A DNA stretch of 64,000 nucleotides from an uncultured Alphaproteobacteria bacterium (GCA_944391715.1 CALXUP010000001.1:100676-164675), one strand, 5' to 3'. Positions 14,891 to 35,310 are shown, counted from the first letter of the stretch. Numbers and translations: made by a program. Notes: generated from the letters alone by a model not told the origin.

Positions 14891-15325
14891 ATGAAAAAAA
14901 CGCTTTTGACTTTGTTGGCGGTTGTTGTTATGACCGGCGGCTGCTCGTATTTTTCGTGGATGAATCCCTGGGCTGACGATAAAAAACCGGAAAAGGTTAA
15001 CGAATTACCGGTAAATGAATTTTTATGGCAGGCTGCTTTGGACCGGATGAGTTTTACACCTTTAAAAACAAGGAATCCGGGAAAAGGGCTGATTGTAACA
15101 GACTGGTTCAGAATGGAAGGGTATCCGCGGGAGTTGTTTATGGTCAAAGTTCAGGTGTTGACCAAGGAACTGCGCAGCGACGGCGTTAAAGTCAGCGTCG
15201 AGAAAAGAGTGTTGCGCGACGGGAAATGGTATGACGAAGAGGCCGGCAGCCGACTGCAAAGCGGAATGGAAAACAGAATCCTCCTGAAAGCAAGGGAGTT
15301 ATACAGAGCAAGTTTATATAAATAA
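14891..15325 (+). CDS. DUF3576-like lipoprotein
   Basis: Signal peptide plus lipobox (LAVVVMTGGC). A small protein immediately upstream of leuS, the conserved position of DUF3576 lipoproteins in alphaproteobacteria. Confidence 0.65.
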   Translation: MKKTLLTLLAVVVMTGGCSYFSWMNPWADDKKPEKVNELPVNEFLWQAALDRMSFTPLKTRNPGKGLIVTDWFRMEGYPRELFMVKVQVLTKELRSDGVKVSVEKRVLRDGKWYDEEAGSRLQSGMENRILLKARELYRASLYK

Positions 15326-15356
15326 AAATTTTGAAAAACAGAATTGAGAACAAAAA

Positions 15357-17834
15357 ATGACTGACAGATATAATGGAAAAGGCTCATTTGAGGAATGGGC
15401 AAAAGAATGGGAAACGGAAGACCGCTATAATTTTAAAAAAATTGAAAAAAAGTGGCAGAGCATCTGGGATGAAAACAAGGCTTATAAGGTAGAAATCGAC
15501 AAGAATAAGGAAAAATATTATGTTCTGGTCGAATTTCCTTATCCGTCCGGCGCCGGTCTGCATGTGGGACATCCTCGCTCTTATACGGCATTGGATGTGG
15601 TAGCGCGCAAAAAGAGAATGCAGGGTTTTAACGTTTTGTATCCGATGGGCTTTGATGCTTTCGGTCTGCCGGCGGAGAATTATGCGATTAAAACCGGCGT
15701 TCATCCGGCAGTTTCCACTAAAGCCAATATTGAAAACTTTACCCGCCAGCTGAAGTCAATCGGATTCAGCTTTGACTGGGACAGAGCTTTTAATACCTGT
15801 GATCCGGAATATTATAAGTGGACGCAGTGGATGTTTATCAAACTTTTTGAAAAAGGTTTGGCATATAAAGACAAAATGGCAATCAACTGGTGCCCGTCCT
15901 GCAAAGTCGGTCTGGCTAATGAAGAGGTTGTCAACGGCTGCTGCGAACGTTGCGGTGCGCAGGTTGTTCGTAAGGACAAAGAGCAGTGGATGGTGGCAAT
16001 TACCAAATATGCCGACCGTTTGATTAACGATTTGGATGATTTGGATTTTATTGACCGGGTTAAAGCACAGCAGATTAACTGGATCGGGCGTTCGGAAGGT
16101 GCCGAGCTGGATTTTGATTTGGTTGACGTTCACGGTAATTCTTTGGACGGAAGAAAGCTTAAAGTCTTTACAACGCGTCCGGATACGGCCTTTGGCGTGA
16201 CTTATATGGTTATGGCGCCGGAGCATGCCTTTGTATCCGAGCTGATGCCGCAATTTGAAAATCCGGAAGAAATCAGAGCTTATGTGGCGGAAACGGCCAA
16301 AAAGTCTGATTTGCAGAGAACGATGGATGACAGCAAAACAGGTGTTGAACTGAAAGGGATTAAAGCAAAGAATCCGTTTAACGGAACGTTGATTCCGGTA
16401 TTTATTTCCGATTATGTGCTGACCGGTTACGGTACCGGCGCAATTATGGCGGTGCCGGCTCATGACCAACGCGACTATGATTTTGCCAAGGCTTTTAATC
16501 TGCCGATTATTCAGGTTCTGGCCGGCGGCGATATTGCCGAAAAGGCTTGGGAAGAAGACGGTGCACATATTAATTCCGGCTTTATGGACGGCATGAATAA
16601 AGATGAGGCGATGAAGGCTGCAATTGCTTTTGCCGAAAAGAACGGTTTTGGCAAATCGAAGGTTAATTTCAAACTGCGTGACTGGGTATTTTCACGTCAG
16701 CGTTATTGGGGCGAGCCTATTCCGATGGTCTATTGCGAGCATTGCGGCTGGCAGCCGGTTCCGGAAGACCAGCTCCCTCTGACTTTGCCGGAAGTTCCAG
16801 ATTATCTGCCGAATGATAACGGCGACTCTCCTTTGGCAAAGGCCACCGACTGGGTTAATACAACTTGTCCGAAATGCGGAGCTCCGGCACGCAGAGAGAC
16901 CGATGTTATGCCAAACTGGGCGGGTTCGTCATGGTATTTTCTGCGTTATTGTGATCCGCACAATGACAAAGAGTTTGCCTCTAAAGAAGCGTTGGATTAC
17001 TGGATGAATGTCGATTGGTATAACGGTGGTATGGAGCATACGACTTTACACCTGCTTTATTCGCGTTTTTGGCATAAGTTTTTGTATGACTGCGGTTATG
17101 TGCCGACCAAAGAACCCTATCAGCGCCGGACGTCGCATGGTATGATTTTGGCTGAGAACGGCGAGAAAATGTCAAAATCGCGCGGTAATGTGATTAATCC
17201 CGATGATATTGTTAATAATTACGGGGCAGACAGCTTCCGTCTGTATGAGATGTTTATCGGGCCGTTTGACCAGGTGGCAATGTGGTCCGATGACAGTCTG
17301 AACGGTGTATACCGTTTTGTCGGCAAGGTGTATAACCTGTTTAAGAAGGTTAATAAAAGTGCCAAGCCCTCGGCTAAAGATATTCAGATGATGCACAAGA
17401 CCATTCTTGAAGTTACCGAAAGAATTGATCAGATGAAGTTTAACACGGCGGTTTCTTCTTTGATGACCTATGTAAACCATTTGTCTTCTTTGGATGAGAT
17501 TGCTCCGGAGCTTTATGAAAATCTGCTGCTTTTGATGTGTCCGTTTACGCCGCATCTGGCAGAGGAAATGTGGGCAAGAATGGGGCATACGTCATTGATT
17601 ATTACGGAGCCCTGGCCGAAAGGCGATGCCAAACTGGCTGAGGAAAATACCGTTACTTATGCCGTTCAGATTTGCGGCAAAATGCGCGGTACAATCGATT
17701 TGCCGAAAGACGCACCGCGCGAAGAGGTTGAAAAAGCCGCATTATCGCTTGAAAATGTTAAGCGGCAGTTGGAAGGCAAAGAGGTTAAAAAGGTTATTGT
17801 GGTGCCTAATAAAATCATCAACCTTGTTGCGTAA
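15357..17834 (+). CDS. leuS: Leucyl-tRNA synthetase
   Basis: HIGH motif (HVGHPRSYT), KMSKS motif (KMSKSRGN), class I editing-domain context and leuS-lptE-holA synteny. Confidence 0.95.
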   Translation: MTDRYNGKGSFEEWAKEWETEDRYNFKKIEKKWQSIWDENKAYKVEIDKNKEKYYVLVEFPYPSGAGLHVGHPRSYTALDVVARKKRMQGFNVLYPMGFDAFGLPAENYAIKTGVHPAVSTKANIENFTRQLKSIGFSFDWDRAFNTCDPEYYKWTQWMFIKLFEKGLAYKDKMAINWCPSCKVGLANEEVVNGCCERCGAQVVRKDKEQWMVAITKYADRLINDLDDLDFIDRVKAQQINWIGRSEGAELDFDLVDVHGNSLDGRKLKVFTTRPDTAFGVTYMVMAPEHAFVSELMPQFENPEEIRAYVAETAKKSDLQRTMDDSKTGVELKGIKAKNPFNGTLIPVFISDYVLTGYGTGAIMAVPAHDQRDYDFAKAFNLPIIQVLAGGDIAEKAWEEDGAHINSGFMDGMNKDEAMKAAIAFAEKNGFGKSKVNFKLRDWVFSRQRYWGEPIPMVYCEHCGWQPVPEDQLPLTLPEVPDYLPNDNGDSPLAKATDWVNTTCPKCGAPARRETDVMPNWAGSSWYFLRYCDPHNDKEFASKEALDYWMNVDWYNGGMEHTTLHLLYSRFWHKFLYDCGYVPTKEPYQRRTSHGMILAENGEKMSKSRGNVINPDDIVNNYGADSFRLYEMFIGPFDQVAMWSDDSLNGVYRFVGKVYNLFKKVNKSAKPSAKDIQMMHKTILEVTERIDQMKFNTAVSSLMTYVNHLSSLDEIAPELYENLLLLMCPFTPHLAEEMWARMGHTSLIITEPWPKGDAKLAEENTVTYAVQICGKMRGTIDLPKDAPREEVEKAALSLENVKRQLEGKEVKKVIVVPNKIINLVA

Positions 17835-18064
17835 AAACTGCGCAATACGGACGCCTAATACAGAAAAGGAAAATCCGGCTAAGTTACGTACGTCTATGTA
17901 CGCGCCTGTCGCCGGATTTTCCTTTTCTTATTATCCGTCTTAGGTATCTAGGCGCGCTGCGGTTGCTAACGCTTTCCTAGCTTGCCAAGATGTTCCAAAG
18001 AGCTTGCAGACAAAAACAACCGGAGTAGCGGTTGTTTTTGCTTAGCGCTTCTATCGCAGTTTTT
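17832..18064. mobile_element. Complete MITE-like palindromic element, long form. Its first TAA is the leuS stop codon. The right TIR variant is CGCAGTTTTTG.
   Basis: About 98% identical over ~230 bp to 9465..9698. The same TIR and internal hairpins are read directly. Confidence 0.8.
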
Positions 18065-18195
18065 GCAGCGGCCTGAAGGGGCTTTGTTATTGCAGATGTT
18101 TTTCTTATTTGTGGGCTTTTCCGTAAAAAATTATGGACTTGTGGCGGAAATGCGGTTAAATTTGCTGTAAGTTAATTTTTTATAAAAGGACGAAT

Positions 18196-18744
18196 ATGAA
18201 AAAAGCAATCGGCGGGTTTTTGGCGTTATTTTGTATATCAGCCTGTGGTTTTGAGCCTCTGTATGCGCAGAGAGAAGATCCTTCGGGATGGTATTTCAGC
18301 GGAAATTTTGATACTTCAGTAACATCTGAAATGGCTAAAGTTAAAGTCGAGCCGATTGCCGATCGTTTTGGTCAGGAAATCAGAAACGAGCTTTTGGATT
18401 TGATTACGCCGAGAGGAATGCCTAAAAATCCGCAATATCGGCTGTTTGTAACCCTCCAGGATGAAGAAATCACGCAACAGGCGTTGCGTCGGGATATTAC
18501 GGCGACCCGCGAACGTGTTCGTTATTCCGTAAGATATGAACTGGTTTCGACAACAAGTAATGAAACGCTGGTAAACGGGGACAGTGTGTCTTTTGTGAGT
18601 TATGATATTTTAGCGAACCCTTATTCGACGACCATGGCGAAGAAAAAGACGCAGTCAGATGCGGCAAAAATTATTGCAAATGACATAGTTTTGCGGTTGG
18701 GTGCTTATTTTCACCGTGAAATGGGAATGCGGGGGAACTATTAG
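18196..18744 (+). CDS. lptE: LPS-assembly lipoprotein LptE (RlpB)
   Basis: Lipobox (LFCISAC), ~180 aa, and the conserved position between leuS and holA. Confidence 0.75.
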   Translation: MKKAIGGFLALFCISACGFEPLYAQREDPSGWYFSGNFDTSVTSEMAKVKVEPIADRFGQEIRNELLDLITPRGMPKNPQYRLFVTLQDEEITQQALRRDITATRERVRYSVRYELVSTTSNETLVNGDSVSFVSYDILANPYSTTMAKKKTQSDAAKIIANDIVLRLGAYFHREMGMRGNY

Positions 18745-19772
18745 TGATTTATAAACAGGCGCAAATTGAGAAATTCTGCAAAAAGCCCGATGAACAGATA
18801 AAATGTTTTCTGGTCTATGGCAGTAATGAAGGTTTGCAAGCTGAGTATGTGAAGAATCTGACCAAAAGCATTAGTCCTGATATTTATGATCCTTTTCAGG
18901 TCGTATATTTTAATTGTTCTGACATTCTTTCTGATATCGGCGCTTTGGCAGCGGAATATTCCAGCCAGTCGTTGATGGGCGGCCGGCGGGTGATTGTTAT
19001 TAAAGATGCCGATAATAACTTGACCAAACATTTGAAAGCTCTTTTGGATAATTCGGTCTCGGATACTTTGATTATTGTTTCTTCCGGAAGTTTGAATAAA
19101 AAGTCTTCTTTGGTTGCTTTGGGAGAATCACGGGAAGATATGGGGGTGATTGCCTGTTATGATGACCGGGACGAAGACGTGTTTTCTACTGTACGCGGAA
19201 AATTGAGCGAAAACGGCTACAGTATTAACAATGAGGCTTTGCAGCTTTTGTGTTCCCGCCTTTCCAATGACCGAAAAACCAATCTCGGTGAGATTGAAAA
19301 ACTGATAACTTATATGGGAGATAAAAAGGCTGTCGGCAGTGATGATGTTCGGGCGGTTATTTCGGATGCATCTGCGTCCAGCAGTGAAGATGTCTGTTAT
19401 TTTACGGCCGGCGGAGATAAGGAAAAGGCGCTGCGGGCTTATCAGAAGATGATTAATGAAGGGAATGAGCCGATTTCGATTGTGCGGACGCTGACTTATC
19501 ATTTTAATAAAATTCTGACGGCTTTGTCTTATATGGAAAGCGGCGACAGCGTGGAGCGGGCGATGGGACGGCTGATTCCGCGGATTATTTTCTTTCGTGA
19601 AGGAAGTTTCAAACGCCAGCTGAATATTTGGAACAAAAATAATGTTCTTGGTGTTATTGAGCTTTTGTATAAATGTGAACGGGATTGTAAAACGACAAAT
19701 ATGCCGGTTGAGGAGATTGTCAGTTATACGTTGATGCAGATATCTTCCAAAGCGGCAAGATTAATCCGTTAG
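18744..19772 (+). CDS. holA: DNA polymerase III delta subunit HolA (GTG start overlapping the lptE stop)
   Basis: About 340 aa with a clamp-loader delta N-terminal domain pattern (LVYGSNEGL...RVIVIKDAD), and synteny. Confidence 0.8.
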   Translation: MIYKQAQIEKFCKKPDEQIKCFLVYGSNEGLQAEYVKNLTKSISPDIYDPFQVVYFNCSDILSDIGALAAEYSSQSLMGGRRVIVIKDADNNLTKHLKALLDNSVSDTLIIVSSGSLNKKSSLVALGESREDMGVIACYDDRDEDVFSTVRGKLSENGYSINNEALQLLCSRLSNDRKTNLGEIEKLITYMGDKKAVGSDDVRAVISDASASSSEDVCYFTAGGDKEKALRAYQKMINEGNEPISIVRTLTYHFNKILTALSYMESGDSVERAMGRLIPRIIFFREGSFKRQLNIWNKNNVLGVIELLYKCERDCKTTNMPVEEIVSYTLMQISSKAARLIR

Positions 19773-19826
19773 GTTTTTAGTTCCCGGTATAGGTAAAATA
19801 TCGTTAATGTTTCAGCAGAAAAGGTT

Positions 19827-20900
19827 TTAGTTTTCTTTTCGGCAAAAACGGTTAAAAAATAAAGCCAGCTGCCGGATGAAAAAGATTGCGGCGATTGATG
19901 AAAAATGGAAGAACATAGCGCAGGCTCCAAAAATGGCCAGAACAGGGATCCATTTTCCCGAAAGTTCAAAATCCGAATAAAATACCGGAATTCCATAGCA
20001 TAAAGTTATGAATACATAAAGCATCAGCAGAAAGTAGATTATTCTTATTATCGGGCGGAGAATAAATTTTTTGAATTTTCCGCAGGGCTTGTTTTTTATG
20101 AATTTGCGTATTTTTTGCCACTGATACGGGGCAAAAATGTTTCCGCCGTATATTAAAAACATAATGCAAATAATATTGAGGAACATAAAATTTAGAAAAG
20201 CCTGACTACTGAAGGAAGGTGAGGCAAAAAAGGCGTCATTTATGAAATTAACAACGGCATTTTTATGCTCTATTCCCGGATTGCTGAGGTAAAGCGCATT
20301 TTGGCAATAAAGGATTATGTAAGCGAAGAACCCCAGAAAAAGAAGAAAACGGTCAATGAATACCTGATCGACAAATTTTCTGATTTTTAGAAGATGCTTT
20401 TCTTCTTCCGTGGAAAGCCGTTCAATTTTTCCGATGTTGGCAATGATGAAGAATTTATTGAAAAAAGTTTGTTTTATTTTTCTTCTGAATGAGATTTTTG
20501 TGCCGGTGTTTTGCTCTTTTGCTTGTTTCAGGGCACGGTTTATTACTGAATAAGTTTTGAAAAATAAAGTTATCTGCGGCAGGCAGTAAGGGGTAATTGG
20601 AGATTTTTTCCAGGTGATAACGGCAAAGGCATATACGGAAAACAGCATAATCATCATTGCCGGTGCCGAAGGATGTTTTTGGTACAGGGCGGATCCGGCA
20701 AAAAATGTCAGATAGGCAAGCCAGGCAAGGCATATTAATTTGAAAAGGATTCCGTTGTTTTGTTTGTTTTCAATATGTCTCAGCAGTTTTTTCAGCGGAT
20801 TGCCGGCCGCCAGCCGATCGGAGATTCTTAGTCCCGGAATCTGTTTTTGGAATTGTTCAAAATTTTCGGGCAGAAAGTCTTCGGGTGTTATGTCGGTCAT
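19827..20900 (-). CDS. Hypothetical polytopic membrane protein (357 aa) with no recognisable family, in a low-GC islet
   Basis: At least 8 predicted hydrophobic helices and an ATGA overlap with the upstream ORF. AT-rich codon usage distinct from the flanking genes. Confidence 0.55.
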   Translation of the reverse strand: MTDITPEDFLPENFEQFQKQIPGLRISDRLAAGNPLKKLLRHIENKQNNGILFKLICLAWLAYLTFFAGSALYQKHPSAPAMMIMLFSVYAFAVITWKKSPITPYCLPQITLFFKTYSVINRALKQAKEQNTGTKISFRRKIKQTFFNKFFIIANIGKIERLSTEEEKHLLKIRKFVDQVFIDRFLLFLGFFAYIILYCQNALYLSNPGIEHKNAVVNFINDAFFASPSFSSQAFLNFMFLNIICIMFLIYGGNIFAPYQWQKIRKFIKNKPCGKFKKFILRPIIRIIYFLLMLYVFITLCYGIPVFYSDFELSGKWIPVLAIFGACAMFFHFSSIAAIFFIRQLALFFNRFCRKEN

Positions 20901-21862
20901 TGCGTTTTTCCTTTTCCGTTTGTTGTTCGGAGATCGACGGCAAAAATCCTGTTATAAAGTTTGACGTAGAGTTTTGACGGATTTTTTCTCCGGTCGGCGC
21001 TCAGATGAAGAATTTGTTCCGGGTGTTCCGGGGCGGAGGATATTGTAAATTTTTGCGGATAAGGCGGGCAGCCTTCGTAAAAGCCTTTTTGTTTTTTATA
21101 TTTTTCCGGAATGTCTGCCAGTTTTATAGTATCTGAGAACTTTGGATAGGTGTCAATAAAACGGATGTAATTGGTTCCGCAATAGGTAAAGCGGTCTTTT
21201 TGCGGGCAGAAGTTCATTATGGAAACCGTGAAGAACCCTTTTTTATCTTTTAACGGAACGACCTCGTAACCGGCAGCATAAAGCCTGTAGTCTTTCTGGT
21301 CTTTGGTAATGAGCAGGTCAGAAGAGAACATCGGTCTGAAGAAAGGATATTTCCAGTAAGAAACGGCAATCGGAGATAAAATATTTTCGATTTTCGGCTG
21401 GCATTTATTTTTTGAATCAGGAAAGGTGATTTTTTGCAGTGAAAAAAACGGAAATTCCGTTTGGGGAAGATGCAGTTTTAATTTTTCGTACTGATCCGTG
21501 CGGGTAAGTGTGCCGGCAAAACCGCTGTTGATGATGCCGAAATTGTTTTCTTTTTTCAAATTTGTAAAGTCGGAGATTTCCGTATATGTGTTGGTTAATG
21601 TTATGGGCGATATGGACGTTGTTTCTTTTGTTGACGGCCGTTGTTGAAGTAATTCCGAGCTTTTTCGGGCATAATGGGAATCTTTATATTGATTGTCGAT
21701 GCAGGCGGTCAATTTATCTAAGGAAAGAGTGCTGCTGCACCAGAAAAGCGGTTGGGCTTCGAAAAAAAATTTATAATATTTGTTGTACAATTTGACATTT
21801 ATGACAATAAGCACGAGGACAAATATGAGAATAAGGATGCGGCGGAAATTGCTCAGAGGCAT
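20897..21862 (-). CDS. Hypothetical protein (321 aa), N-terminal membrane anchor plus an extracytoplasmic domain, unknown family
   Basis: TM helix ILILIFVLVLIVINV followed by a soluble Cys-containing domain. Translationally coupled to 19827..20900. Confidence 0.55.
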   Translation of the reverse strand: MPLSNFRRILILIFVLVLIVINVKLYNKYYKFFFEAQPLFWCSSTLSLDKLTACIDNQYKDSHYARKSSELLQQRPSTKETTSISPITLTNTYTEISDFTNLKKENNFGIINSGFAGTLTRTDQYEKLKLHLPQTEFPFFSLQKITFPDSKNKCQPKIENILSPIAVSYWKYPFFRPMFSSDLLITKDQKDYRLYAAGYEVVPLKDKKGFFTVSIMNFCPQKDRFTYCGTNYIRFIDTYPKFSDTIKLADIPEKYKKQKGFYEGCPPYPQKFTISSAPEHPEQILHLSADRRKNPSKLYVKLYNRIFAVDLRTTNGKGKTQ

Positions 21863-21964
21863 ACATTTCTCCTTTTTATAAAGGCGTTATATTGTTTGTA
21901 GTATAAAAAGGAGCTTATTTAAAAACAGTTAAAGGTTGTAAAAGGATAAGATTTTGATTGTAAT

Positions 21965-21999
21965 AAAAAAGCCCGCCGGGAAAATTCTCGGCGGTTTGT
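21965..21999 (-). terminator. Rho-independent terminator downstream of the DUF378 gene (hairpin ccgccg/cggcgg, then a T-run on the minus strand)
   Basis: 6-bp GC stem, 10-nt loop, U-tract on the minus-strand transcript. Confidence 0.55.
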
Positions 22000-22002
22000 T
22001 TT

Positions 22003-22209
22003 TTATTCTCCTATTTTTTCCCGACAATAAGGTAAATCCAGAATTGCAATAACAGCCGAAATTCCGACCAGCATATAAATAATCTGGGTCAGAATACCGG
22101 CCTCTCCAAAGATGAAAGAAACAAGATTAAATCCAAAGAACCCGATCAGTCCCCAGTTGATCCCTCCGATGATGGTTAAAATTAGAGCGATTTGCCGTAC
22201 AATGTTCAT
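22003..22209 (-). CDS. DUF378-family small membrane protein (68 aa from the internal start MNIVRQ at 22209; the ORF as listed opens at 22314)
   Basis: The GGINWGLIGFFGFNLV motif is typical of DUF378. An RBS GGAGAA precedes the internal ATG. Confidence 0.65.
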   Translation of the reverse strand: MNIVRQIALILTIIGGINWGLIGFFGFNLVSFIFGEAGILTQIIYMLVGISAVIAILDLPYCREKIGE

Positions 22210-22291
22210 TTTGCTTCTCCTGTAAATAAAAGTTGGCATTTTCTGCCAGTATGATATATATGCCATAAATGTTTTTTCAACGGAGAGAACC

Positions 22292-22990
22292 ATGTACAGC
22301 GAAAAATTTGCCAAAGCGGTTGAGATGCTGCAAAAAGATTTTGCTTTGGAAAGATCTATTGATGAAAAAATTTGTGCCGATCGGGACGGAAGGCCAATTC
22401 CCTGGTATACATTTCCGGCGATTGAGTATTTATCGCAATTTGATTATCGAAACAGAAAAATTTTTGAATACGGCTGCGGTTCTTCTTCGCATTTTTGGGC
22501 GGAGAGAGCCGAAAAGGTCATTAGTATTGAAGATAATCCGAAGTGGTTTGAGAAATGGCAGGCAGAAATGACGGAATCTAATCTGGAGGTTCGCTGGCGG
22601 GATGAAGGCGAGATTTATGAAAATGCCATTTTTGAACAGGAAGATTTGTTTGATGTTATTGTGGTTGACGGTAAAAGACGGGCGGAATGTTGTGCGGCGG
22701 CGGTGCAAAGACTGACTAAGGGCGGAATGATTATTCTTGATGACAGCGACAGGGTTAATACCAGCCAGGAATATCGAAAAGCGATTGCCATTCTTCGGGA
22801 AAGCGGATTGATTCAGGTGGATTTTTATGGTTTTTGCCCAATGAATTGTTATACCAAAACAACCAGTCTGTTTTTGAGCCGGGATTTTGATTTTGAATCA
22901 AAATATGAGGTTCAGCCGATAAACGGATTGGGAAATTTATGGTCGATGAGCCGACGAGAAAGAAAGGATTTTTATAAGAAAATGGCATAA
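22292..22990 (+). CDS. Putative class I SAM-dependent methyltransferase
   Basis: Motif I-like IFEYGCGSSSHFWA and an acidic motif II/post-I (VISIEDN), followed by VIVVDG...GGMIILDD, typical of the Rossmann MTase fold. A terminator follows. Confidence 0.55.
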   Translation: MYSEKFAKAVEMLQKDFALERSIDEKICADRDGRPIPWYTFPAIEYLSQFDYRNRKIFEYGCGSSSHFWAERAEKVISIEDNPKWFEKWQAEMTESNLEVRWRDEGEIYENAIFEQEDLFDVIVVDGKRRAECCAAAVQRLTKGGMIILDDSDRVNTSQEYRKAIAILRESGLIQVDFYGFCPMNCYTKTTSLFLSRDFDFESKYEVQPINGLGNLWSMSRRERKDFYKKMA

Positions 22991-22992
22991 AA

Positions 22993-23031
22993 AACAGGAT
23001 TGCGGTTTTTTACCGGAATCCTGTTTTTTTT
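22993..23031 (+). terminator. Rho-independent terminator after the methyltransferase gene
   Basis: Hairpin caggattgcgg/ccggaatcctg followed by TTTTTTTT. Confidence 0.6.
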
Positions 23032-23316
23032 GTATCAGTCATCATATCTGTTAACATTGCGGTATTTGTATATATCATACCACATTATCAGATATACAAA
23101 CACTGTAAATACGACCCAAATTAATCCTGTAATTTGCCAGCCGTTTAATGAAGCTAAAAAGTCGACCATAGTATTTTTTTATTTAATGGTTAATGAATTC
23201 AAAAAATTTATAAAAAAATGTATGCGAATTTTTGTTTCATAAAAGCAATATAATTAAAGTTAATAATAAATTTTGTGCTTTCCAATATATGCCAGAACGT
23301 CTTTGTAGTCAACAGA

Positions 23317-23961
23317 TTATTGAGCAAGGCCGGCAATCTCGGCCCGGAGTTCTTCCAGACCCAGCTTTTTTTCAGAGCTGGTTGCCAAAAGCCGGATATG
23401 AGCAGCACCGTGCTTTTTGATGTTTTCCTGAGTATCAAAAATAACTTTTTGCAGCTCTTTGGCGGAAATTTTATCTGTTTTGGTTAAGACAATCTGATAT
23501 GTAACGGCAGCGGCATCGAGCATTTTCATAATTTCTTCATCGACTTTTTTGATTCCGTGGCGCGAATCTATCAGCAGAAAAACGCGTTTCAGGTTTACCC
23601 GTCCCTGCAGATAGGCAAAAATCATTTTCTGCCATTGTCTGACCATATTTTCCGGCGCCTGGGCAAAGCCATAACCAGGTAAATCTACCATCAGCAGTTT
23701 GTTACCGAGATTAAAATAATTCAGCTGTTGGGTACGACCGGGTGTGTTGGAGGCTTTAGCCAGATTTTTTTGGCCGGTCAGGGCATTAATCAGGCTTGAT
23801 TTTCCAACGTTTGAACGTCCGGCAAAGGCAATTTCACCGAGTTCGGAAACCGGAAGCTGGTCTAAACGGGCTGCACCGAGCATAAAAGTGCAGGGGCCGG
23901 AGAGAAGCTTTCTTCCGGCGTCTATTTGTTCAGGGCTCAATTCTTCTGTTTTTGTTTCCAT
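23317..23961 (-). CDS. engB: Ribosome-biogenesis GTPase EngB/YihA
   Basis: G1 motif GRSNVGKSS, G3 DLPGYG, G4 TKTD, and the conserved position upstream of yidC. Confidence 0.9.
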   Translation of the reverse strand: METKTEELSPEQIDAGRKLLSGPCTFMLGAARLDQLPVSELGEIAFAGRSNVGKSSLINALTGQKNLAKASNTPGRTQQLNYFNLGNKLLMVDLPGYGFAQAPENMVRQWQKMIFAYLQGRVNLKRVFLLIDSRHGIKKVDEEIMKMLDAAAVTYQIVLTKTDKISAKELQKVIFDTQENIKKHGAAHIRLLATSSEKKLGLEELRAEIAGLAQ

Positions 23962-23964
23962 AAA

Positions 23965-25659
23965 TCAGACTCCGACTTTGCGCATAATGGCTTTTTGCTG
24001 GATGATGGAGAGCAGGTTGCTCAATGTCCAGTATATAACCAGTCCTGAAGCAAAATGTCCGAGCATAAAGGTGAAGATTAACGGAAGCAGAGCAAAAACG
24101 CGCGCTTGATCTTTATTGGCCGGTGCGGGATTCAGCTTTTGCTGGATATACATGCTGATGCCCATCAGAATCGGCCAAATGCCAATGTCCAGGATTCCGG
24201 GAATCGGAAGATGCGACCAAACCGAAATTGTCAGCGGATCCGGTGCGGAAAGGTCTTTAATCCAGCCGATAAACGGTGCGTGGCGAATCTCGATAGAGAT
24301 ATTCAGTACTTTATACAGAGAGAAGAATACCGGAATTTGGATCAGAACCGGCAGGCATCCGGCAGCGGGATTGATTTTTTCTTTGCGATAGAGGTTCATA
24401 ACTTCTTGCTGCATTTTTACCTTATCGTCTTTATATCTTTCTTGAATTTCCAGCATTTTAGGCTGAACTTTTTTCATTTTAGACATACTTTCGTAAGACT
24501 TGTTGGCAATCGGATACATCAGCAGCCGGAGCAGGGCGGCAAAGAGCAGAATCGCCCATCCCATATTGCCGATAATATGATATAAAAAGTCCAGAATGTA
24601 GAAGAACGGTTTGGTCAGGAAGTAGTACCAGCCGAAATCAACTGCCAAATCGAATTTGTCGATATTATATTTTTTGGTGTAGTTATCCAGCAGTTTGATT
24701 TCTTTGGCGCCGGAATAAAAGCGAATATTCTGGGTTCCGATGGAGCCCGGAGCGATGTTGGCAGCATCGCCGAGGTAGTCAACCTGATAAACGTTGTCCG
24801 CGGTTTTGCCGAACTTGACTTTGGCGTTTTGATTGTTGCCGAAGACCAGAGAACTGAACCAGTACCGGTCGCCGAATCCGACCCAGCCGCCGTTGGTTTT
24901 GAATTCTTCCTTTTCTCCTTGTTTTTTTAAGGAGGAGTATTTGATTTCTTTCAGCGAAGAATCGATGACGCCGAGCATTCCCTCATGAACAACGGCGTTT
25001 TGGGAACTTTGGTTTTGGTCGATTGTCCGGCTGATCAGCCCGTAAGGATAAAGGGTGATTTCTTTTCCGGTGTTGTTCTCGACAGACTGCTCAATATTGA
25101 ACATATAGTTTTTATCGAGGCTGATTTTACGGATAAAGCGCAGGCCCTGTCCATTGTTATATTCCAATACAAGCGGGGTTTCCGGTGTCAGTTCTTTGGT
25201 TTTGGCCTGCCATTCGGTTGAGTTGTCCGGTAATTTTAAATTCCGGTCATTGGAGAGCCAGCCGAACTCAGCATAATAGGGTTCGATTGTCCGGGTCGGA
25301 GACAAAAGTTCAACATCCGGGCTGTCTTTTTCCAGTCCGACTTTGTACTTGGAAAGGTAAAGTTCATCAAAACGGGCACCTTTCAAGCGGATGCTGCCGT
25401 GAACGGCATCATTGGAAAATTTTATGCGTTTTTCAGAAGCGACGGCTTCGGCCGTGGTCAGGGGCTTTTCATCAATTATGATTTTGCCTTCGTTTTGCGA
25501 ATCAGACAGTTTTTCTTCTGCAAGGCTGATTTCCGGTTCTGCTTTGTTTTGCGGGGCTGCAGGCGTTGTCGGAAACAGATAGTTGGTAACGAAAATGGCA
25601 ATAACGGATAGTATAACGGCGAGAAACAAGCCTCTGGTTTCTTCTTTCATAATGTGCAA
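23965..25659 (-). CDS. yidC: Membrane protein insertase YidC
   Basis: About 560 aa, a large periplasmic P1 domain, then the conserved C-terminal 5-TM core (PxxxKMQ...YKxxKINPxxGCLPxLIQIPVF). Confidence 0.95.
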   Translation of the reverse strand: MHIMKEETRGLFLAVILSVIAIFVTNYLFPTTPAAPQNKAEPEISLAEEKLSDSQNEGKIIIDEKPLTTAEAVASEKRIKFSNDAVHGSIRLKGARFDELYLSKYKVGLEKDSPDVELLSPTRTIEPYYAEFGWLSNDRNLKLPDNSTEWQAKTKELTPETPLVLEYNNGQGLRFIRKISLDKNYMFNIEQSVENNTGKEITLYPYGLISRTIDQNQSSQNAVVHEGMLGVIDSSLKEIKYSSLKKQGEKEEFKTNGGWVGFGDRYWFSSLVFGNNQNAKVKFGKTADNVYQVDYLGDAANIAPGSIGTQNIRFYSGAKEIKLLDNYTKKYNIDKFDLAVDFGWYYFLTKPFFYILDFLYHIIGNMGWAILLFAALLRLLMYPIANKSYESMSKMKKVQPKMLEIQERYKDDKVKMQQEVMNLYRKEKINPAAGCLPVLIQIPVFFSLYKVLNISIEIRHAPFIGWIKDLSAPDPLTISVWSHLPIPGILDIGIWPILMGISMYIQQKLNPAPANKDQARVFALLPLIFTFMLGHFASGLVIYWTLSNLLSIIQQKAIMRKVGV

Positions 25660-25750
25660 CAGCTCCTTTTGACTTTATCTTTCAGTTTTTTGCAATAAAA
25701 AATATTTTATAACATATTTAATCTATATTCCGGCGCAAAGCAAGCAATTA

Positions 25751-25996
25751 TCAATGATTATGCGGTTTTTCTTTTGGCGGAACAGGGTCGTATCCGCTGC
25801 CGCCCCAGGGGTGGCAGCGCAGTATTCTTTTTGTTCCGAGCCACAGGCCCTTGAAAATGCCGTGAATCCGAAGTGCCTCAATCATATATTGCGAGCAGGT
25901 CGGACGATAGCGGCAAACCCCGGGAAAAAGCGGAGAAATGAGGAATTGGTAAAGCTTAATCAGCAGAATCAGCGGCAGGGTCAGGAGTTTTTTCAT
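25751..25996 (-). CDS. yidD: Membrane protein insertion efficiency factor YidD
   Basis: 81 aa with the family motif YQxxISPLxxxxCRYxPTCSxY. Confidence 0.9.
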
Positions 25997-26369
25997 TGGC
26001 CGACTTCTCTTTTTTTAATATTTTATTGATGCGTTTCAGCGCGATAATCATTTCTTCTTTAAGCTTGGCAAAATTGCAGGAGGCCGTATTATGACGTCCG
26101 ATCAAAACATAAGAAACGCCGGGCAGGGAATGGCGGGGAAAAATCTCCCGGGCAGCGGCGCGCAGACGGCGTTTGGTCCGGTTGCGGACATGGGCTTTGC
26201 CGATTTTTTTTGTTACGGTATATCCCAAACCGGCGCCGCCGGAAATTGGTTTTACGGCAGGAATATGAAAAGCCGCCTGCAGAATCAAAGAAGATGATAC
26301 CATTTTTTGACCTTGCGAGGCGACTTTTACAAAATCTTTGCGTTTTTTTAAGATAAAAACTTCAGTCAT
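25956..26369 (-). CDS. rnpA: RNase P protein component
   Basis: Basic ~120-aa protein with the RNR-like motif ([13 protein letters not shown]), positioned between rpmH and yidD. Confidence 0.85.
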
Positions 26370-26388
26370 AGTTTGCTTTCAAAGAAAA

Positions 26389-26523
26389 CTAAGCAGAAAG
26401 TCTTTTACGTCCTTTCAAACGACGGGCAGCCAGAACTTTGCGGCCGCCGACAGTTGCCATACGGGTACGAAAGCCGTGACGGCGTGCTCTTACCAGCTTG
26501 CTGGGTTGATATGTACGTTTCAT
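26389..26523 (-). CDS. rpmH: 50S ribosomal protein L34 (44 aa)
   Basis: Hand translation gives [44 protein letters not shown], the canonical L34 sequence. It is below the 60-aa cutoff of the ORF track. Confidence 0.95.
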
Positions 26524-26740
26524 TTTGTTTCTCCGGTTTTTTAGTTATTTATTTAAAATTTTCAAAGCAAAACGCAGTGAAAATTCTCGGGTTACAGCCT
26601 CTTATAGACAGTTTTTGCCGGCAAGTCAATGATTTTTTTGAAAAAATTTGTTCTTGGTCTGGATATGCGAAAGTTTTATATATTTTGTTTTGTCGAGAAA
26701 ATGATTTACATTTTTTTATTTTCTGTTATCTGAAAATATT

Positions 26741-27670
26741 ATGAGTAAAGGTTATCTGCAAAAATTTATAAAAGTTGATGAAGTTCATACAGTTGCTTAC
26801 AGAGAATATGGCAGACCTGATGGAATTCCGGTTCTTATGCTGCATGGCGGACCAGGCGGCAAAATTGATTTTCGTATTTTGGATTTGATTGATTTAAATT
26901 TCTTTCGGGTCTTTACGATTGATCAGAGAGGTTGCGGGTTAAGTACTCCTAAAGGTGAGTTGCGTGCCAATACATTATTTCATCTCATATCTGATATAGA
27001 GAATATCCGGCAAAAGGAAAAACTAGGAAAATGTATTATTTTTGGACGTTCTTGGGGAACGGTGCTGGGATTAATGTATGCGTTAAAATATCCTCAAAAT
27101 TGTTTACATTTAATATTGCGTGGAATTTTTTTAGGACGAAATACGGATGAATTGTGGACGTTTGAACAATCAAAAGTTAAGTTTCCGCAACAATGGGCTG
27201 AATTTAGTGATGGTTTGACTTCTTTTAGGCCTTTGAATGAACAATTTTATGAAAAGGTTTTTTCGGAAAATAAAAAAATTGCATTATTTTATAGCTCTAA
27301 AATGACGCATTATTTTGATATCTTGGCGACTAATAATGTTGATATTCCGGTAGAACCTGAATCTGAAGAGAATTTAATTGCTAATAAAATTTTTCTTCAT
27401 TATAGTGTGCATCATTATTTTTTTGACGATGTTTTTTGGGAACAACATCTTGGAGAGCTTGATGTTAATGGTATTCATGGCGTTATTCTTCACGGTGGTA
27501 AAGACAATGATTGTTTGGTGGAGCAGGCTTATTATTTGCATAGCAAATGGAAAAAATCTACTTTGATTGTTGAACCTGATGTTTCCCATTGTGATAATCA
27601 ACCAGAAATTAGAAAACAAATTCAGAATATTTTTACGACATTAAAAATTTATTTTAGCCATCGTCTATAA
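26741..27670 (+). CDS. pip: Proline iminopeptidase (S33 prolyl aminopeptidase, alpha/beta hydrolase)
   Basis: LHGGPGG oxyanion motif and the GRSWGTVL nucleophile elbow (GxSxG). Very AT-rich compared with its neighbours. Confidence 0.8.
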   Translation: MSKGYLQKFIKVDEVHTVAYREYGRPDGIPVLMLHGGPGGKIDFRILDLIDLNFFRVFTIDQRGCGLSTPKGELRANTLFHLISDIENIRQKEKLGKCIIFGRSWGTVLGLMYALKYPQNCLHLILRGIFLGRNTDELWTFEQSKVKFPQQWAEFSDGLTSFRPLNEQFYEKVFSENKKIALFYSSKMTHYFDILATNNVDIPVEPESEENLIANKIFLHYSVHHYFFDDVFWEQHLGELDVNGIHGVILHGGKDNDCLVEQAYYLHSKWKKSTLIVEPDVSHCDNQPEIRKQIQNIFTTLKIYFSHRL

Positions 27671-27686
27671 ATACTTTTCAAAAAGA

Positions 27687-27733
27687 ATCAGTCTCTTGGG
27701 ATTTTTTTATCCGGTGGGAGACTGATTTTTTTA
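27687..27733. terminator. Bidirectional terminator-like hairpin between pip and the BI-1 gene
   Basis: 9-bp stem atcagtctc/gagactgat with a long loop, followed by TTTTTTT. Convergent gene ends flank it. Confidence 0.4.
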
Positions 27734-27758
27734 TCTTCATTAAAATGCTTGATGCAAA

Positions 27759-28487
27759 TTATTTTCTGTCGCCGATTAGCTGCAACAGGTGAATAAAGAT
27801 GTTGATGAAATCAAGATACAAAGACAAAGCACCGGCAATAGCTTTTTTGGAGGCTGTTTCGCTGTCTTCGTAATCAACGTACATGGCTTTGATGTTTTGA
27901 ATGTCATAAGCCGTCAGTCCGGTAAAGACCAAGACGCTTATGAAAGAGATGGCATAGGACATTCCGGTGCTTTTCAAAAAGAAAGCATTTACCAGTGAGG
28001 CAATGATTATGCCGATCAAGCCCATGAACAAAAAGCTTCCCATTCCGCTCAAGTCGCGTTTGGTTGTGTAGCCGTAAAGGCTCATGGCGCCAAAAGTTGC
28101 AGCCGTAATCAGGAAAACGCGGGTGATGCTTTCTCCGGTATACAACAGCAGAATCGGGCAAAGAGATACGCCCATCAGTGCGGAATAAAGCCAAAATACC
28201 CCTTTAACCTGGGCGGCAGTGCCGCGGTTGATGACCCAGCCAAAGGCAAAGACGATAACCAGCGGCGCGAGAAAAGCAAGCCATCCGAATCCGGAAAGGC
28301 TGGCGCCTTGCGGCGTGATGTTATAAAAAATGCGCAAAATCGAGGGATTGCTGATCATCAGCCAAGAGACCAGAGCCGTAATGCAGAGGCCGCCGGCCAT
28401 ATAATTGAATACCTTCATCAGGTATTGACGCAGACCTTCATTGACAACTGTCGTTTCGACAGGGGCAGTGTAAATTTTGTTTTCCAT
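27759..28487 (-). CDS. Bax inhibitor-1/YccA-family membrane protein
   Basis: 7-TM ~240-aa protein with a BI-1 family pattern (conserved C-terminal region and an acidic tail). Confidence 0.8.
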   Translation of the reverse strand: MENKIYTAPVETTVVNEGLRQYLMKVFNYMAGGLCITALVSWLMISNPSILRIFYNITPQGASLSGFGWLAFLAPLVIVFAFGWVINRGTAAQVKGVFWLYSALMGVSLCPILLLYTGESITRVFLITAATFGAMSLYGYTTKRDLSGMGSFLFMGLIGIIIASLVNAFFLKSTGMSYAISFISVLVFTGLTAYDIQNIKAMYVDYEDSETASKKAIAGALSLYLDFINIFIHLLQLIGDRK

Positions 28488-35179: not shown

Positions 35180-35310
35180 GACATAAAAATATTTAATTTG
35201 ACATAATTTTATTTTGCCCGATGAAAGTAGCATAACGTGCCGGAGAAGTCAACAGATGCTTGAAACCGGAGAAGCGGGGGCTATATCTTTGTTGTTTTAA
35301 GGAGGGGAAA

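What the first reader, a model, noticed from the sequence alone, without database searches (positions are those of the whole stretch)
19800..23316. Low-GC 3.5-kb islet between holA and engB: a coupled pair of novel membrane proteins, a DUF378 gene and a SAM-methyltransferase
The islet interrupts housekeeping synteny between holA and engB and is visibly more AT-rich than its flanks. It holds four elements. The first is a 321-aa protein with an N-terminal anchor and an extracytoplasmic Cys-containing domain. The second is translationally coupled to it (ATGA overlap): a 357-aa protein with 8 or more TM helices and no recognisable family. The third is a 68-aa DUF378 membrane protein with its own terminator. 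The fourth is a divergently oriented class-I SAM methyltransferase. None of these is core metabolism. The coupled pair looks like a dedicated two-component membrane machine, for example a polymerase/ligase-like or transporter-like system, and it is the best candidate in the window for an undescribed system.
Basis: partly seen in the sequence, partly recalled or inferred. Interest (0 to 1): 0.65.

Follow-up and report, generated by a model that had tools for sequence, protein, structure and literature searches.

The report
Fast-evolving orphan membrane protein pair
Two overlapping genes of an uncultured gut alphaproteobacterium encode a membrane-anchored periplasmic protein and a six-helix membrane protein that always occur together, match no known family and change far faster than their neighbours, but the proposed four-gene "islet" is not one unit and the pair's function is unknown.

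Summary

**Not an islet.** DUF378 and the methyltransferase-like gene are not foreign. They form a divergent pair next to holA in 35 of 37 related loci. Only the 2.1-kb p321–p357 pair (19827–21862, minus strand) is variable. Among six congeneric species it is present in two and absent from four.

**A genuine module.** The pair occurs in 8 lineages and 3 genomic contexts: holA/DUF378, mutS/rplM and queH/MIP. The order is always p321 then p357, overlapping or 2 nt apart.

**The proteins.**
- p321 has an N-terminal signal anchor and a ~290-aa periplasmic domain with four invariant cysteines plus a further pair lost together in one lineage.
- p357 has 6 TM helices, not ≥8, with tiny periplasmic loops.
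- Neither matches Pfam, NCBIfam, PADLOC, PHROGs or PDB.
- The p357 family has only 26 cluster representatives among 1.84 billion.

**Evolution.** The pair is 27–52% identical where flanking genes are 84–94% identical. Between sister species it is under purifying selection (ω≈0.1).

**Function.** Unknown. My best guess, at low confidence, is an accessory envelope-protection (immunity or exclusion-like) complex. Shorter p357 relatives sit in type-I-secretion/RTX and glycine-zipper neighbourhoods. A Wzy/WaaL-like reading is not supported.

Interest is moderate to low.

The parts
20897..21862 (-). p321: 321-aa bitopic protein. It has an N-terminal signal anchor (about residues 8-27, preceded by RR) and a ~290-aa beta-rich periplasmic domain. 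Four cysteines are invariant (C42, C54, C154, C265). C219 and C228 are conserved except in one lineage, where both are replaced together.
   Evidence: ORF. Hydropathy. 7-lineage alignment; in L080 both C219 and C228 are Ser, which suggests a C219-C228 disulfide. dN/dS is 0.13 against the sister species. No family match.
19827..20900 (-). p357: 357-aa polytopic inner-membrane protein. It has 6 TM helices and is predicted N-in/C-in. It has a conserved 48-aa cytoplasmic N-terminus (LPENFE...IP.LKIS...NPLK...ENK), an 81-aa basic cytoplasmic loop (residues 98-178) and very short periplasmic loops. Its start overlaps the p321 stop (ATGA at 20897-20900).
   Evidence: ORF. Overlap. Topology. Family of only 26 representatives among 1.84 billion. 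Alignments. dN/dS 0.095. No family match.
21869..21913 (-). Leader hairpin of the p321-p357 transcript. A perfect 12-bp stem (CUCCUUUUUAUA / UAUAAAAAGGAG) carries the Shine-Dalgarno AAGGAG (21874-21869) in its 3' arm, 6 nt before the ATG at 21862.
   Evidence: Inverted repeat I8. Fold -16.4 kcal/mol, z=-2.5. The L010 leader forms an SD-sequestering hairpin with a different stem sequence, z=-4.6. Sequence read. A regulatory role is inferred, not shown.
21973..21994 (.). GC-rich hairpin with T-runs on both sides. It is the intrinsic terminator of DUF378 and separates that gene from the p321-p357 unit. It also marks the right-hand junction of the pair indel.
   Evidence: Terminator scan. Sequence. 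The same hairpin directly follows the spacer after holA or DUF2062 in species that lack the pair.
19773..19826 (.). Left junction: the spacer between the holA stop and the p357 stop. Nucleotide identity to the related species L010 falls from about 85% to 50-65% here.
   Evidence: Junction alignments. Sliding identity profile. The empty site in L006 is a 110-bp spacer. It contains a 19-nt stretch that matches the p357 3' end at 14 of 19 positions. This may be a deletion scar, but it is statistically weak.
22003..22209 (-). DUF378 small membrane protein (68 aa). It is a conserved neighbour and not part of the variable pair.
   Evidence: Pfam PF04070, E=1e-21, 76.9 bits against a cutoff of 25. 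Adjacent and divergent to the MT-like gene in 35 of 37 loci. 82% identical to the L001 orthologue.
22292..22990 (+). 232-aa Rossmann-type methyltransferase-like protein with a motif-I-like EYGCGSS. It is divergent from DUF378 and is a conserved neighbour, not part of the variable pair.
   Evidence: Methyltransf_24 E=1.3e-3, 20 bits, below the 26.3 cutoff. A 14-sequence profile hits 3cvo (E=0.006) and 1vbf (E=0.017). 84% identical to the L001 orthologue.
23035..23169 (-). Previously unnoted 44-aa single-TM ORF (MVDFLASLNGWQITGLIWVVFTVFVYLIMWYDIYKYRNVNRYDD). It lies downstream of engB on the same strand.
   Evidence: tblastn gives 48% identity over 42 aa to a conserved 55-aa ORF at the same position in L007-L010. 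A 44-aa gene is called at the equivalent place in L002.

Best explanation
**What it is.** p321 and p357 form a self-contained, translationally coupled two-gene module found only in a few lineages of uncultured, mostly gut-associated bacteria.
- p321 is anchored in the inner membrane by its N-terminus. It exposes a disulfide-bonded, beta-rich domain to the periplasm.
- p357 is a six-helix inner-membrane protein. Its conserved parts are the cytoplasmic N-terminal motif and TM1-TM2/TM4.

**What is shown.** The anatomy, the pairing, the restricted distribution, the fast evolution under purifying selection, and the absence of any known family.

**What is inferred.** I infer from the obligate co-occurrence, fixed order and ORF overlap that the two proteins form a complex in the inner membrane.

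**Proposed function (low confidence).** The complex is an accessory envelope-protection device: an immunity or exclusion-like module. It would neutralise or block membrane-targeting agents from competitors, such as bacteriocins or RTX proteins exported by type I secretion. In that reading p357 acts in the membrane and p321 is its periplasmic partner. This would explain three things:
- the pair is dispensable, being lost in four of six congeneric species;
- it diverges 4-10 times faster than its neighbours;
- it moves between genomic locations.
For: **Pairing**
- The order p321 then p357, with overlapping or 2-nt-spaced ORFs, is seen in three contexts.
- At holA/DUF378: the window and L001/L010.
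- At mutS/rplM: L071, L072/73, L078/79 and L080.
- At queH/MIP: L088.
- Pairwise identities of the two proteins across lineages correlate (r=0.95 over all 21 pairs; 0.43 among the 18 distant pairs).

**Real genes**
- dN/dS is 0.095 and 0.13 against L005, with dS equal to the flanks.

**Fast evolution**
- Window against L001: flanks are 82-94% identical, p357 49% and p321 52%.
- Within the mutS-linked genus: mutS is 84-91% identical, p321 37-46% and p357 27-44%.

**Dispensability**
- The pair is absent from L006-L009, including L009, which differs from the pair-bearing L010 by only 2.7% in flank proteins.

**Topology**
-.

**Conflict-type neighbourhoods of shorter p357 relatives**
- P0012 and P0014 lie immediately upstream of homologous large RTX proteins. 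Beside P0012 there are also a C39-peptidase ABC exporter, secreted ankyrin proteins and a Tlde1-domain protein.
- L085 carries a tandem array of family paralogues plus the same secreted ankyrin protein.
- P0018 is followed by a protein with a C-terminal glycine-zipper segment.

**Precedent**
- CdzI is a homologue-less, multi-TM inner-membrane immunity protein to bacteriocins exported by type I secretion (PMC5380434).
Against: - No toxin, secretion system or mobile-element gene lies next to the pair in the window or in any of the three long-form contexts.
- In the mutS-linked genus the pair is present in every sampled species, like a core gene.
- Short-term dN/dS (about 0.1) shows no positive selection.
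- Within the species the pair is 99% conserved across many samples.
- The RTX association rests on essentially one homologous locus type, plus two short contigs from 25-27% GC organisms. It concerns a shorter subfamily that lacks the p321 partner.
- PADLOC and PHROGs give nothing.
- No usable structure exists. AlphaFold2 mean pLDDT was 44 for p357 and 37 for p321, so no fold-level support is available.
- Physical interaction of the two proteins is untested.
Confidence: 0.3

Rival explanations
1. The pair is a lineage-specific envelope housekeeping or biogenesis complex, for example a membrane-protein or cell-surface assembly factor or a small transporter with a periplasmic partner. It evolves fast only because constraint is weak, and there is no conflict-driven role.
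For: - The pair is fixed downstream of mutS, 10-18 nt after its stop, in all sampled species of one genus.
- dN/dS is about 0.1 with no sign of positive selection.
- Synonymous divergence at 4-fold sites is not clearly deeper than in the flanks (0.53-0.58 against 0.42-0.58). Vertical descent with a high dN is therefore sufficient.
- There are no toxin or mobile genes nearby.
- GC3 is typical of the genome.
Against: - Four of six congeneric species do without it, so it is not essential.
- Its distribution is extremely narrow: 26 representatives among 1.84 billion.
- Shorter relatives sit in toxin and secretion loci.
- There is no similarity to any transporter or biogenesis family.
Confidence: 0.3
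2. The pair is a toxin-immunity module. p321 would be a periplasm-acting toxin or effector and p357 its cognate membrane immunity protein, in the usual order of toxin first and immunity second, translationally coupled.
For: - Gene order, ORF overlap, parallel rapid divergence and patchy presence fit.
- The SD-sequestering leader hairpin, conserved in structure but not in sequence, recalls the tight translational control of toxic membrane proteins.
Against: - p321 has no recognisable toxin or delivery domain (no PAAR, Rhs, LXG, MIX or CdiA-type region), and no secretion system lies nearby.
- It keeps an uncleaved-looking N-terminal anchor, so it would stay in the producer's own membrane.
- In one genus it is co-transcribed with mutS without a leader.
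- Shorter p357 relatives pair with ankyrin proteins instead of p321.
Confidence: 0.1
3. The pair is a phage superinfection-exclusion or abortive-infection module acting at the inner membrane. This is analogous in layout to T4 Imm (membrane) plus Sp (periplasm-anchored); that analogy is recalled from my own knowledge, not tested here.
For: The pair is patchy, dispensable, fast-evolving, located in the envelope and relocates between loci.
Against: - There are no hits in PADLOC or PHROGs.
- There are no homologues in 50,697 phage records, in the two IMG/VR pattern scans or in 72,556 plasmids.
- No other defence genes or prophage remnants lie alongside.
Confidence: 0.1
4. This is the first reader's reading: a horizontally acquired four-gene low-GC islet whose coupled pair is a polymerase/ligase-like (Wzy/WaaL-type) or transporter-like machine.
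For: - The interval is about 6 percentage points lower in GC than the window (0.38 against 0.447).
- The pair is indeed an indel between close species.
Against: - DUF378 and the MT-like gene are conserved next to holA in 35 of 37 loci, with normal divergence.
- GC3 is within 1 sd of the genome.
- There is no tRNA, integrase or flanking direct repeat.
- p357 has 6 TM helices and periplasmic loops of at most about 24 residues. Wzy/WaaL-type proteins, from established knowledge of those families, have 10 or more TM helices and a large periplasmic loop.
- There is no Pfam match of any kind.
Confidence: 0.05

Closest known systems
CdzI and other inner-membrane immunity proteins to pore-forming or type-I-secreted bacteriocins (Caulobacter Cdz system, PMC5380434)
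   Same: - Both are polytopic inner-membrane proteins with no sequence homologues in characterised families.
- Both are accessory and patchily distributed.
- Shorter relatives of p357 lie beside a C39-peptidase ABC exporter, RTX proteins and a glycine-zipper protein.
   Different: - There is no sequence similarity.
- CdzI is small with 3 predicted TM helices; p357 has 357 aa, 6 TM helices and a conserved cytoplasmic N-terminal motif.
- p357 has an obligate periplasmic partner.
- No toxin or exporter lies near the pair in the window.
- Immunity activity is untested.
   Same: Both are polytopic membrane proteins of roughly 350-400 aa encoded in a variable locus.
   Different: - There is no Pfam hit.
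- p357 has 6 rather than 10 or more TM helices.
- Its largest periplasmic loop is about 24 aa.
- Its long loops are basic and predicted cytoplasmic.
- No glycosyltransferase or flippase genes are adjacent.
FrpD-FrpC of Neisseria meningitidis: an accessory gene immediately upstream of an RTX protein carrying a self-processing module (recalled from my own knowledge)
   Same: Short p357 relatives P0012 and P0014 sit directly upstream of RTX proteins carrying PF26745 (SPM), which I take from memory to be the FrpC-type self-processing module, plus RTX repeats. P0014 ends only 4 nt before the RTX gene starts.
   Different: - FrpD is an outer-membrane lipoprotein, not a 6-TM protein, and there is no homology.
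- The window's pair has no RTX neighbour.
DUF378 (PF04070) and Methyltransf_24-like class I methyltransferase folds, for the two neighbouring genes
   Same: - The 68-aa protein is a clear DUF378 member (E=1e-21).
- The 232-aa protein has a motif-I-like EYGCGSS. It also gives weak profile matches to the Rossmann methyltransferase folds 3cvo and 1vbf.
   Different: - The MT-like protein scores below Pfam's threshold.
- Neither gene belongs to the variable pair. Together they form their own conserved divergent module next to holA. Its function is unknown.

Membership tests
Wzy/WaaL-type O-antigen polymerase/ligase | Sequence match to the family profile (Pfam Wzy_C or a related model) | tested here: not met
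   No Pfam or NCBIfam family at E<=1 for p357. None of 18 family members hits such a model at E<=5.
Wzy/WaaL-type O-antigen polymerase/ligase | Ten or more TM helices with a large periplasmic loop carrying the catalytic residues (established knowledge of the family) | tested here: not met
   Hydropathy gives 6 TM segments in three divergent homologues. Periplasmic loops are about 3, 24 and 3-7 aa. The 81-aa loop has 18 K+R residues and is predicted cytoplasmic.
Horizontally acquired genomic island | Atypical composition or codon usage relative to the host genome | tested here: not met
   GC is 0.384 and 0.404 against 0.452 +/- 0.042. GC3 is 0.43 and 0.46 against 0.489 +/- 0.07. The deficit lies in GC1, so it reflects amino-acid composition.
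Horizontally acquired genomic island | Integration signature: tRNA, integrase or transposase, or flanking direct repeats | tested here: not met
   No tRNA in 15000-28000. No flanking repeats beyond chance-level short matches. No mobility gene in the interval. No plasmid or phage homologues.
Horizontally acquired genomic island | Presence/absence polymorphism among close relatives | tested here: met
   This holds for the p321-p357 pair only. It is present in the window/L005 species and in L010, and absent in L006-L009. It does not hold for DUF378 and the MT-like gene, which are conserved.
Toxin-immunity / polymorphic toxin system | A recognisable toxin domain, with or without a delivery domain, next to the immunity gene | tested here: not met
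   p321 and all neighbours lack any toxin or delivery domain in Pfam, NCBIfam and PADLOC.
Toxin-immunity / polymorphic toxin system | Cognate pairs that co-diverge rapidly and are variably present | tested here: met
   Identities are 27-52% against 84-94% for the flanks. Divergence of the two proteins runs in parallel (r=0.95). Presence is patchy.
Toxin-immunity / polymorphic toxin system | Toxicity of one partner neutralised by the other | not testable with these tools
   Requires expression experiments.
Known anti-phage defence systems (PADLOC-DB) | Match to a defence-system protein model | tested here: not met
   No PADLOC hit for p321, p357 or their L071 homologues at E<=1.
DUF378 (PF04070), neighbouring 68-aa gene | Score above Pfam's gathering threshold | tested here: met
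   76.9 bits against a cutoff of 25, E=1.1e-21, covering profile positions 2-57 of 60.
Class I SAM-dependent methyltransferase, neighbouring 232-aa gene | Score above the threshold of a methyltransferase family model | tested here: inconclusive
   Methyltransf_24 scores 20 bits against a 26.3 cutoff (E=1.3e-3). NCBIfam gives only E>=0.012. A 14-sequence profile against PDB hits 3cvo (E=0.006) and 1vbf PIMT (E=0.017).
Class I SAM-dependent methyltransferase, neighbouring 232-aa gene | Glycine-rich motif I followed by an acidic residue at the end of strand beta-2 | tested here: met
   Invariant E59-x-G61-C-G63-x-S65-S66 and E80-D81 in the 14-sequence alignment. This is read from the sequence. 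SAM binding is untested.

The most novel reading that the evidence does not exclude
p321 and p357 found a previously undescribed class of two-part envelope immunity or exclusion modules. A disulfide-bonded periplasmic partner (p321, or a secreted ankyrin protein in other lineages) works with a six-helix inner-membrane protein that carries a conserved cytoplasmic N-terminal motif. Together they protect uncultured gut bacteria against membrane-targeting toxins exported by type I secretion (RTX-type or glycine-zipper). Orphan copies such as the one in this window would act as acquired defence against neighbours' toxins.
Probability: 0.2. Interest if true: 0.6.

Novelty: new variant of a known kind. 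Interest (0 to 1): 0.38.

Why it matters
If the pair is an envelope-protection module, it would add a new protein family to the little-known repertoire of immunity against type-I-secreted and RTX-type toxins. It would do so in a group of uncultured gut Alphaproteobacteria about which almost nothing functional is known. It would also give a ready marker of inter-bacterial conflict in gut metagenomes.

If the pair is just a fast-evolving lineage-specific envelope complex, it is ordinary. A large share of genes in such genomes are orphans.

Two results stand either way. The four-gene "islet" reading is corrected. And the pair is a clean example of a syntenic locus diverging to 27-52% identity between species whose neighbouring genes are 84-94% identical.

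Tried and rejected
1. **Structure route.** AlphaFold2 on the only admissible alignments (4 and 3 sequences) gave mean pLDDT 43.8 for p357 and 37.1 for p321. Foldseek against PDB on these models gave nothing (best E=0.38 and 1.6, probability <=0.18). I treat this as meaningless.

2. **Sequence and profile searches.** All were negative for both proteins and their relatives: Pfam, NCBIfam, PADLOC, PHROGs and PDB.

3. **Deeper synonymous divergence.** I first read the higher Nei-Gojobori pS of the pair (0.74-0.79 against 0.52-0.57) as evidence for ancient alleles swapped by recombination. A cleaner test looked at 4-fold sites at conserved residues. It showed no clear excess (0.53-0.58 against 0.42-0.58; in the second genus the flanks are already near saturation). 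I dropped that claim. Only 2/3-fold sites show a modest excess (0.40 against 0.245).

4. **A spurious hit.** jackhmmer flagged window 11409-12503 as DUF378-related. Pfam shows it is an MraY-like Glycos_transf_4 protein, so the hit was profile drift.

5. **Mobile-element origin.** There are no homologues in IMG/VR pattern scans, 50,697 phage records or 72,556 plasmids. There is no tRNA and there are no flanking repeats.

6. **Metagenome scans.** JGI metagenome scans added only one short contig of the L001 type. Broader alignments were too divergent for the pattern-based locus finder.

7. **Other architectures.** An LptC/LptFG-like layout was considered because lptE is nearby. I rejected it because the large p357 loop lies between TM2 and TM3, is basic and is predicted cytoplasmic, and there is no profile match.

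8. **Lipoprotein reading of p321.** Rejected. The first Cys is at residue 42, far from the hydrophobic segment, and there is no lipobox.

9. **Literature on DUF378.** The search returned nothing functional; the top hit concerned DUF3780.

Full report
**1. What is in the interval**

- p357 lies at 19827-20900(-) and p321 at 20897-21862(-). They share an ATGA stop/start overlap.
- A DUF378 gene lies at 22003-22209(-) (PF04070, E=1e-21). It is followed by a GC-rich hairpin terminator at 21973-21994.
- A divergent 232-aa gene lies at 22292-22990(+).
- The flanks are lptE-holA on one side and engB-yidC-yidD-rnpA on the other.
It is 48% identical to a conserved 55-aa ORF at the same place in related species.

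**2. Not one islet**

I fetched the holA neighbourhood from 66 species-representative genomes, all uncultured gut or rumen Alphaproteobacteria MAGs.
- The order holA - DUF378(-) - MT(+) - engB - yidC recurs in the window's genus and its sister genus.
- The divergent DUF378/MT pair is adjacent in 35 of 37 loci that have the MT gene. This holds even where the downstream genes differ.
- Against the related species L001/L010, DUF378 is 82% and MT 84% identical, like the flanks at 82-94%.
- Only the p321-p357 pair is variable. It is present in the window's species (L002-L004, 99% identical), its sister L005 and L010 (the same contig as L001).
- It is absent from L006-L009. L009 differs from L010 by only 2.7% in concatenated flank proteins.
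- In pair-less species the spacer after holA, or after an extra DUF2062 gene, runs straight into the DUF378 terminator.
- L006 keeps a 19-nt stretch resembling the p357 3' end (14 of 19 matches). This hints at deletion but is weak evidence.

**3. Composition**

- The interval has GC 0.38 against 0.447 for the window.
- Per gene, p357 (0.384) and p321 (0.404) are 1.1-1.6 sd below the gene mean. Their GC3 (0.43, 0.46) is within 1 sd of 0.489. The deficit is at codon position 1, so it reflects K/N/I/F-rich proteins.
- Three other genes in the window are far stronger outliers.
- There is no tRNA, no Rfam family, no mobility gene and no flanking repeat.
- Compositional evidence for recent import is therefore lacking.

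**4. The pair is a genuine, portable module**

Searches of 5.8 billion proteins found only near-identical copies plus one 52% relative of p321. A profile search then found a 37% relative of p357. An exhaustive HMM search of 1.84 billion cluster representatives found just 26 p357-family proteins at E<=1e-3. Looking up their contigs gave three independent contexts:
- holA/DUF378: the window and L001;
- mutS -> p321-like -> p357-like -> (variable gene) -> rplM-rpsI, in L071, L072/73, L078/79 and L080, starting 10-18 nt after the mutS stop;
- queH - oxidoreductase -> p321-like -> p357-like -> MIP, in L088.

In all eight lineages the order is p321 then p357, and the ORFs overlap or are 2 nt apart.

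**5. The proteins**

*p321*
- It has an RR-preceded hydrophobic anchor (about residues 8-27), no lipobox and a ~290-aa periplasmic domain.
- Four cysteines (C42, C54, C154, C265) are invariant. C219 and C228 are conserved except in L080, where both are replaced together, which suggests a C219-C228 disulfide.
- The linker at residues 61-90 is the most variable part. Residues 151-240 and 271-300 are the most conserved.

*p357*
- It has six TM segments in three divergent homologues, not eight or more.
- By the positive-inside rule it is N-in/C-in.
- It has a 48-aa cytoplasmic N-terminus, an 81-aa loop with 18 K+R between TM2 and TM3, and periplasmic loops of about 3, 24 and 3-7 residues.
- The N-terminal motif (LPENFE...IP.LKIS...NPLK...ENK), TM1-TM2 and TM4 (ending in ...NIF.PYE) are the best conserved parts across the family. 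The C-terminal half is the least conserved.

*Searches*
- Neither protein, nor any of 18 and 7 relatives respectively, matches Pfam, NCBIfam, PADLOC, PHROGs or PDB sequences.
- AlphaFold2 models from the shallow admissible alignments were unusable (pLDDT 44 and 37). Fold searches on them gave nothing.

**6. Evolution**

- Against the sister species L005 (flank dS about 0.4), the pair has the same dS and dN/dS of 0.095 and 0.13. Flanks have 0.03-0.08. This is clear purifying selection, only mildly relaxed.
- At the next level the picture changes sharply. Against L001, dN is 0.35-0.39 for the pair and 0.03-0.09 for the flanks. Nucleotide identity drops from about 85% to 50-70% exactly at the holA stop and recovers through DUF378.
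- In the mutS-linked genus, mutS is 84-91% identical while p321 is 37-46% and p357 27-44%.
- The two proteins diverge in parallel (r=0.95).
- I first took the higher Nei-Gojobori pS as a sign of ancient alleles. The cleaner 4-fold-site test does not support a clearly deeper coalescence. Vertical descent with a very high long-term amino-acid rate, plus repeated loss, is therefore adequate.
- Independent acquisition at the same spot cannot be excluded.

**7. Leads on function**

The long-form pair has no informative neighbours. Shorter family members (260-310 aa, lacking the big cytoplasmic loop) are more telling.
- P0012 and P0014 sit directly upstream of homologous large RTX proteins. These carry HemolysinCabind and HCBP_related domains, with PF26745 (SPM) recorded for them. 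Beside P0012 there are also a C39-peptidase ABC exporter, an AprE-type adaptor, a signal-peptide-bearing ankyrin protein and a Tlde1-domain protein.
- L085 carries a tandem array of family paralogues plus the same ankyrin protein.
- P0018 is followed by a protein with a glycine-zipper C-terminus.

This recalls inner-membrane immunity proteins to bacteriocins exported by type I secretion, such as CdzI. That protein likewise has no homologues (PMC5380434). The evidence is thin: essentially one locus type plus two short contigs. It also concerns a subfamily without p321.

**8. Leader**

- The DUF378 terminator isolates the pair as its own unit.
- Its ~100-nt leader folds into a perfect 12-bp hairpin whose 3' arm is the Shine-Dalgarno sequence.
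- The L010 leader does the same with a different stem sequence.
- Translational control is plausible but untested. The mutS-linked copies have no leader.

**9. Verdict**

The errors are the TM count, the strength of the GC signal, the firmness of the methyltransferase call and the missed small ORF.

It is a dedicated, co-inherited pair of undescribed membrane proteins. It is not a four-gene islet, and it is not polymerase/ligase-like.

My best mechanistic reading is an accessory inner-membrane/periplasm complex with an envelope-protection (immunity or exclusion-like) role. I hold it at about 0.3. It is essentially tied with a plain, fast-evolving lineage-specific envelope complex.

Orphan membrane gene pairs are common in poorly studied lineages. 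The main points of interest are the extreme divergence at a syntenic site and the possible link to immunity against type-I-secreted toxins.

Noticed in passing
window 23035-23169 (-): An unannotated-looking 44-aa single-TM ORF lies downstream of engB on the same strand. It is 48% identical to a conserved 55-aa ORF at the same position in L007-L010. The sister genus carries 53-74-aa small TM proteins there. It may be the last gene of the rnpA-yidD-yidC-engB operon.
   Followed up: partly
window 22003-22990; 35 of 37 related loci (e.g. L011, L022, L024): DUF378 and the 232-aa methyltransferase-like gene form a conserved divergent two-gene module. It stays next to holA even where the downstream genes change, and it is inverted as a unit in L024 and L027. 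This functional link between a DUF378 membrane protein and a Rossmann-fold protein appears undescribed.
   Followed up: partly
window 21869-21913 (-); L010 about 13625-13660 (-): An SD-sequestering hairpin sits in the p321 leader. The structure is conserved in a related species but the stem sequence differs. It may be a translational switch or an RNA-thermometer-like element. It has no Rfam match.
   Followed up: partly
window 26741-27670 (+): An alpha/beta-hydrolase gene is the strongest compositional outlier near the finding (GC 0.332, GC3 0.236). In L001 a TrbC-like gene occupies this position instead. This spot, between rpmH/rnpA and the Bax1-I gene, is therefore a better candidate for recent gene exchange than the reported islet.
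   Followed up: partly
window 34322-35233 (-) and 47776-48288 (-): Two further low-GC ORFs have no Pfam match: 303 aa with GC 0.352, and 170 aa with GC 0.300. Both are more deviant in composition than the finding.
   Followed up: no
L072 7123-9327 (-), L080 7100-9223 (-): In the mutS-linked genus, a convergent 707-734-aa protein with no Pfam match lies just downstream of the pair. It is only 37% identical between species whose mutS is 84% identical, and it is replaced by a 78-aa gene in L078. The whole mutS-rplM interval is therefore hypervariable there.
   Followed up: partly
L007-L010 (e.g. L010 11094-11591): A DUF2062 gene lies between holA and DUF378 in one subclade of the genus but is absent from the window's subclade. 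The holA-DUF378 spacer is thus a recurrent site of gene gain and loss.
   Followed up: partly
L074-L077, L081, L085: Loci from other low-GC uncultured bacteria combine several elements:
- FrpC-like RTX proteins;
- a C39-peptidase ABC exporter;
- secreted ankyrin-repeat proteins;
- tandem arrays of polytopic membrane proteins, including p357-family paralogues.

This looks like an uncharacterised toxin/immunity-type locus.
   Followed up: partly
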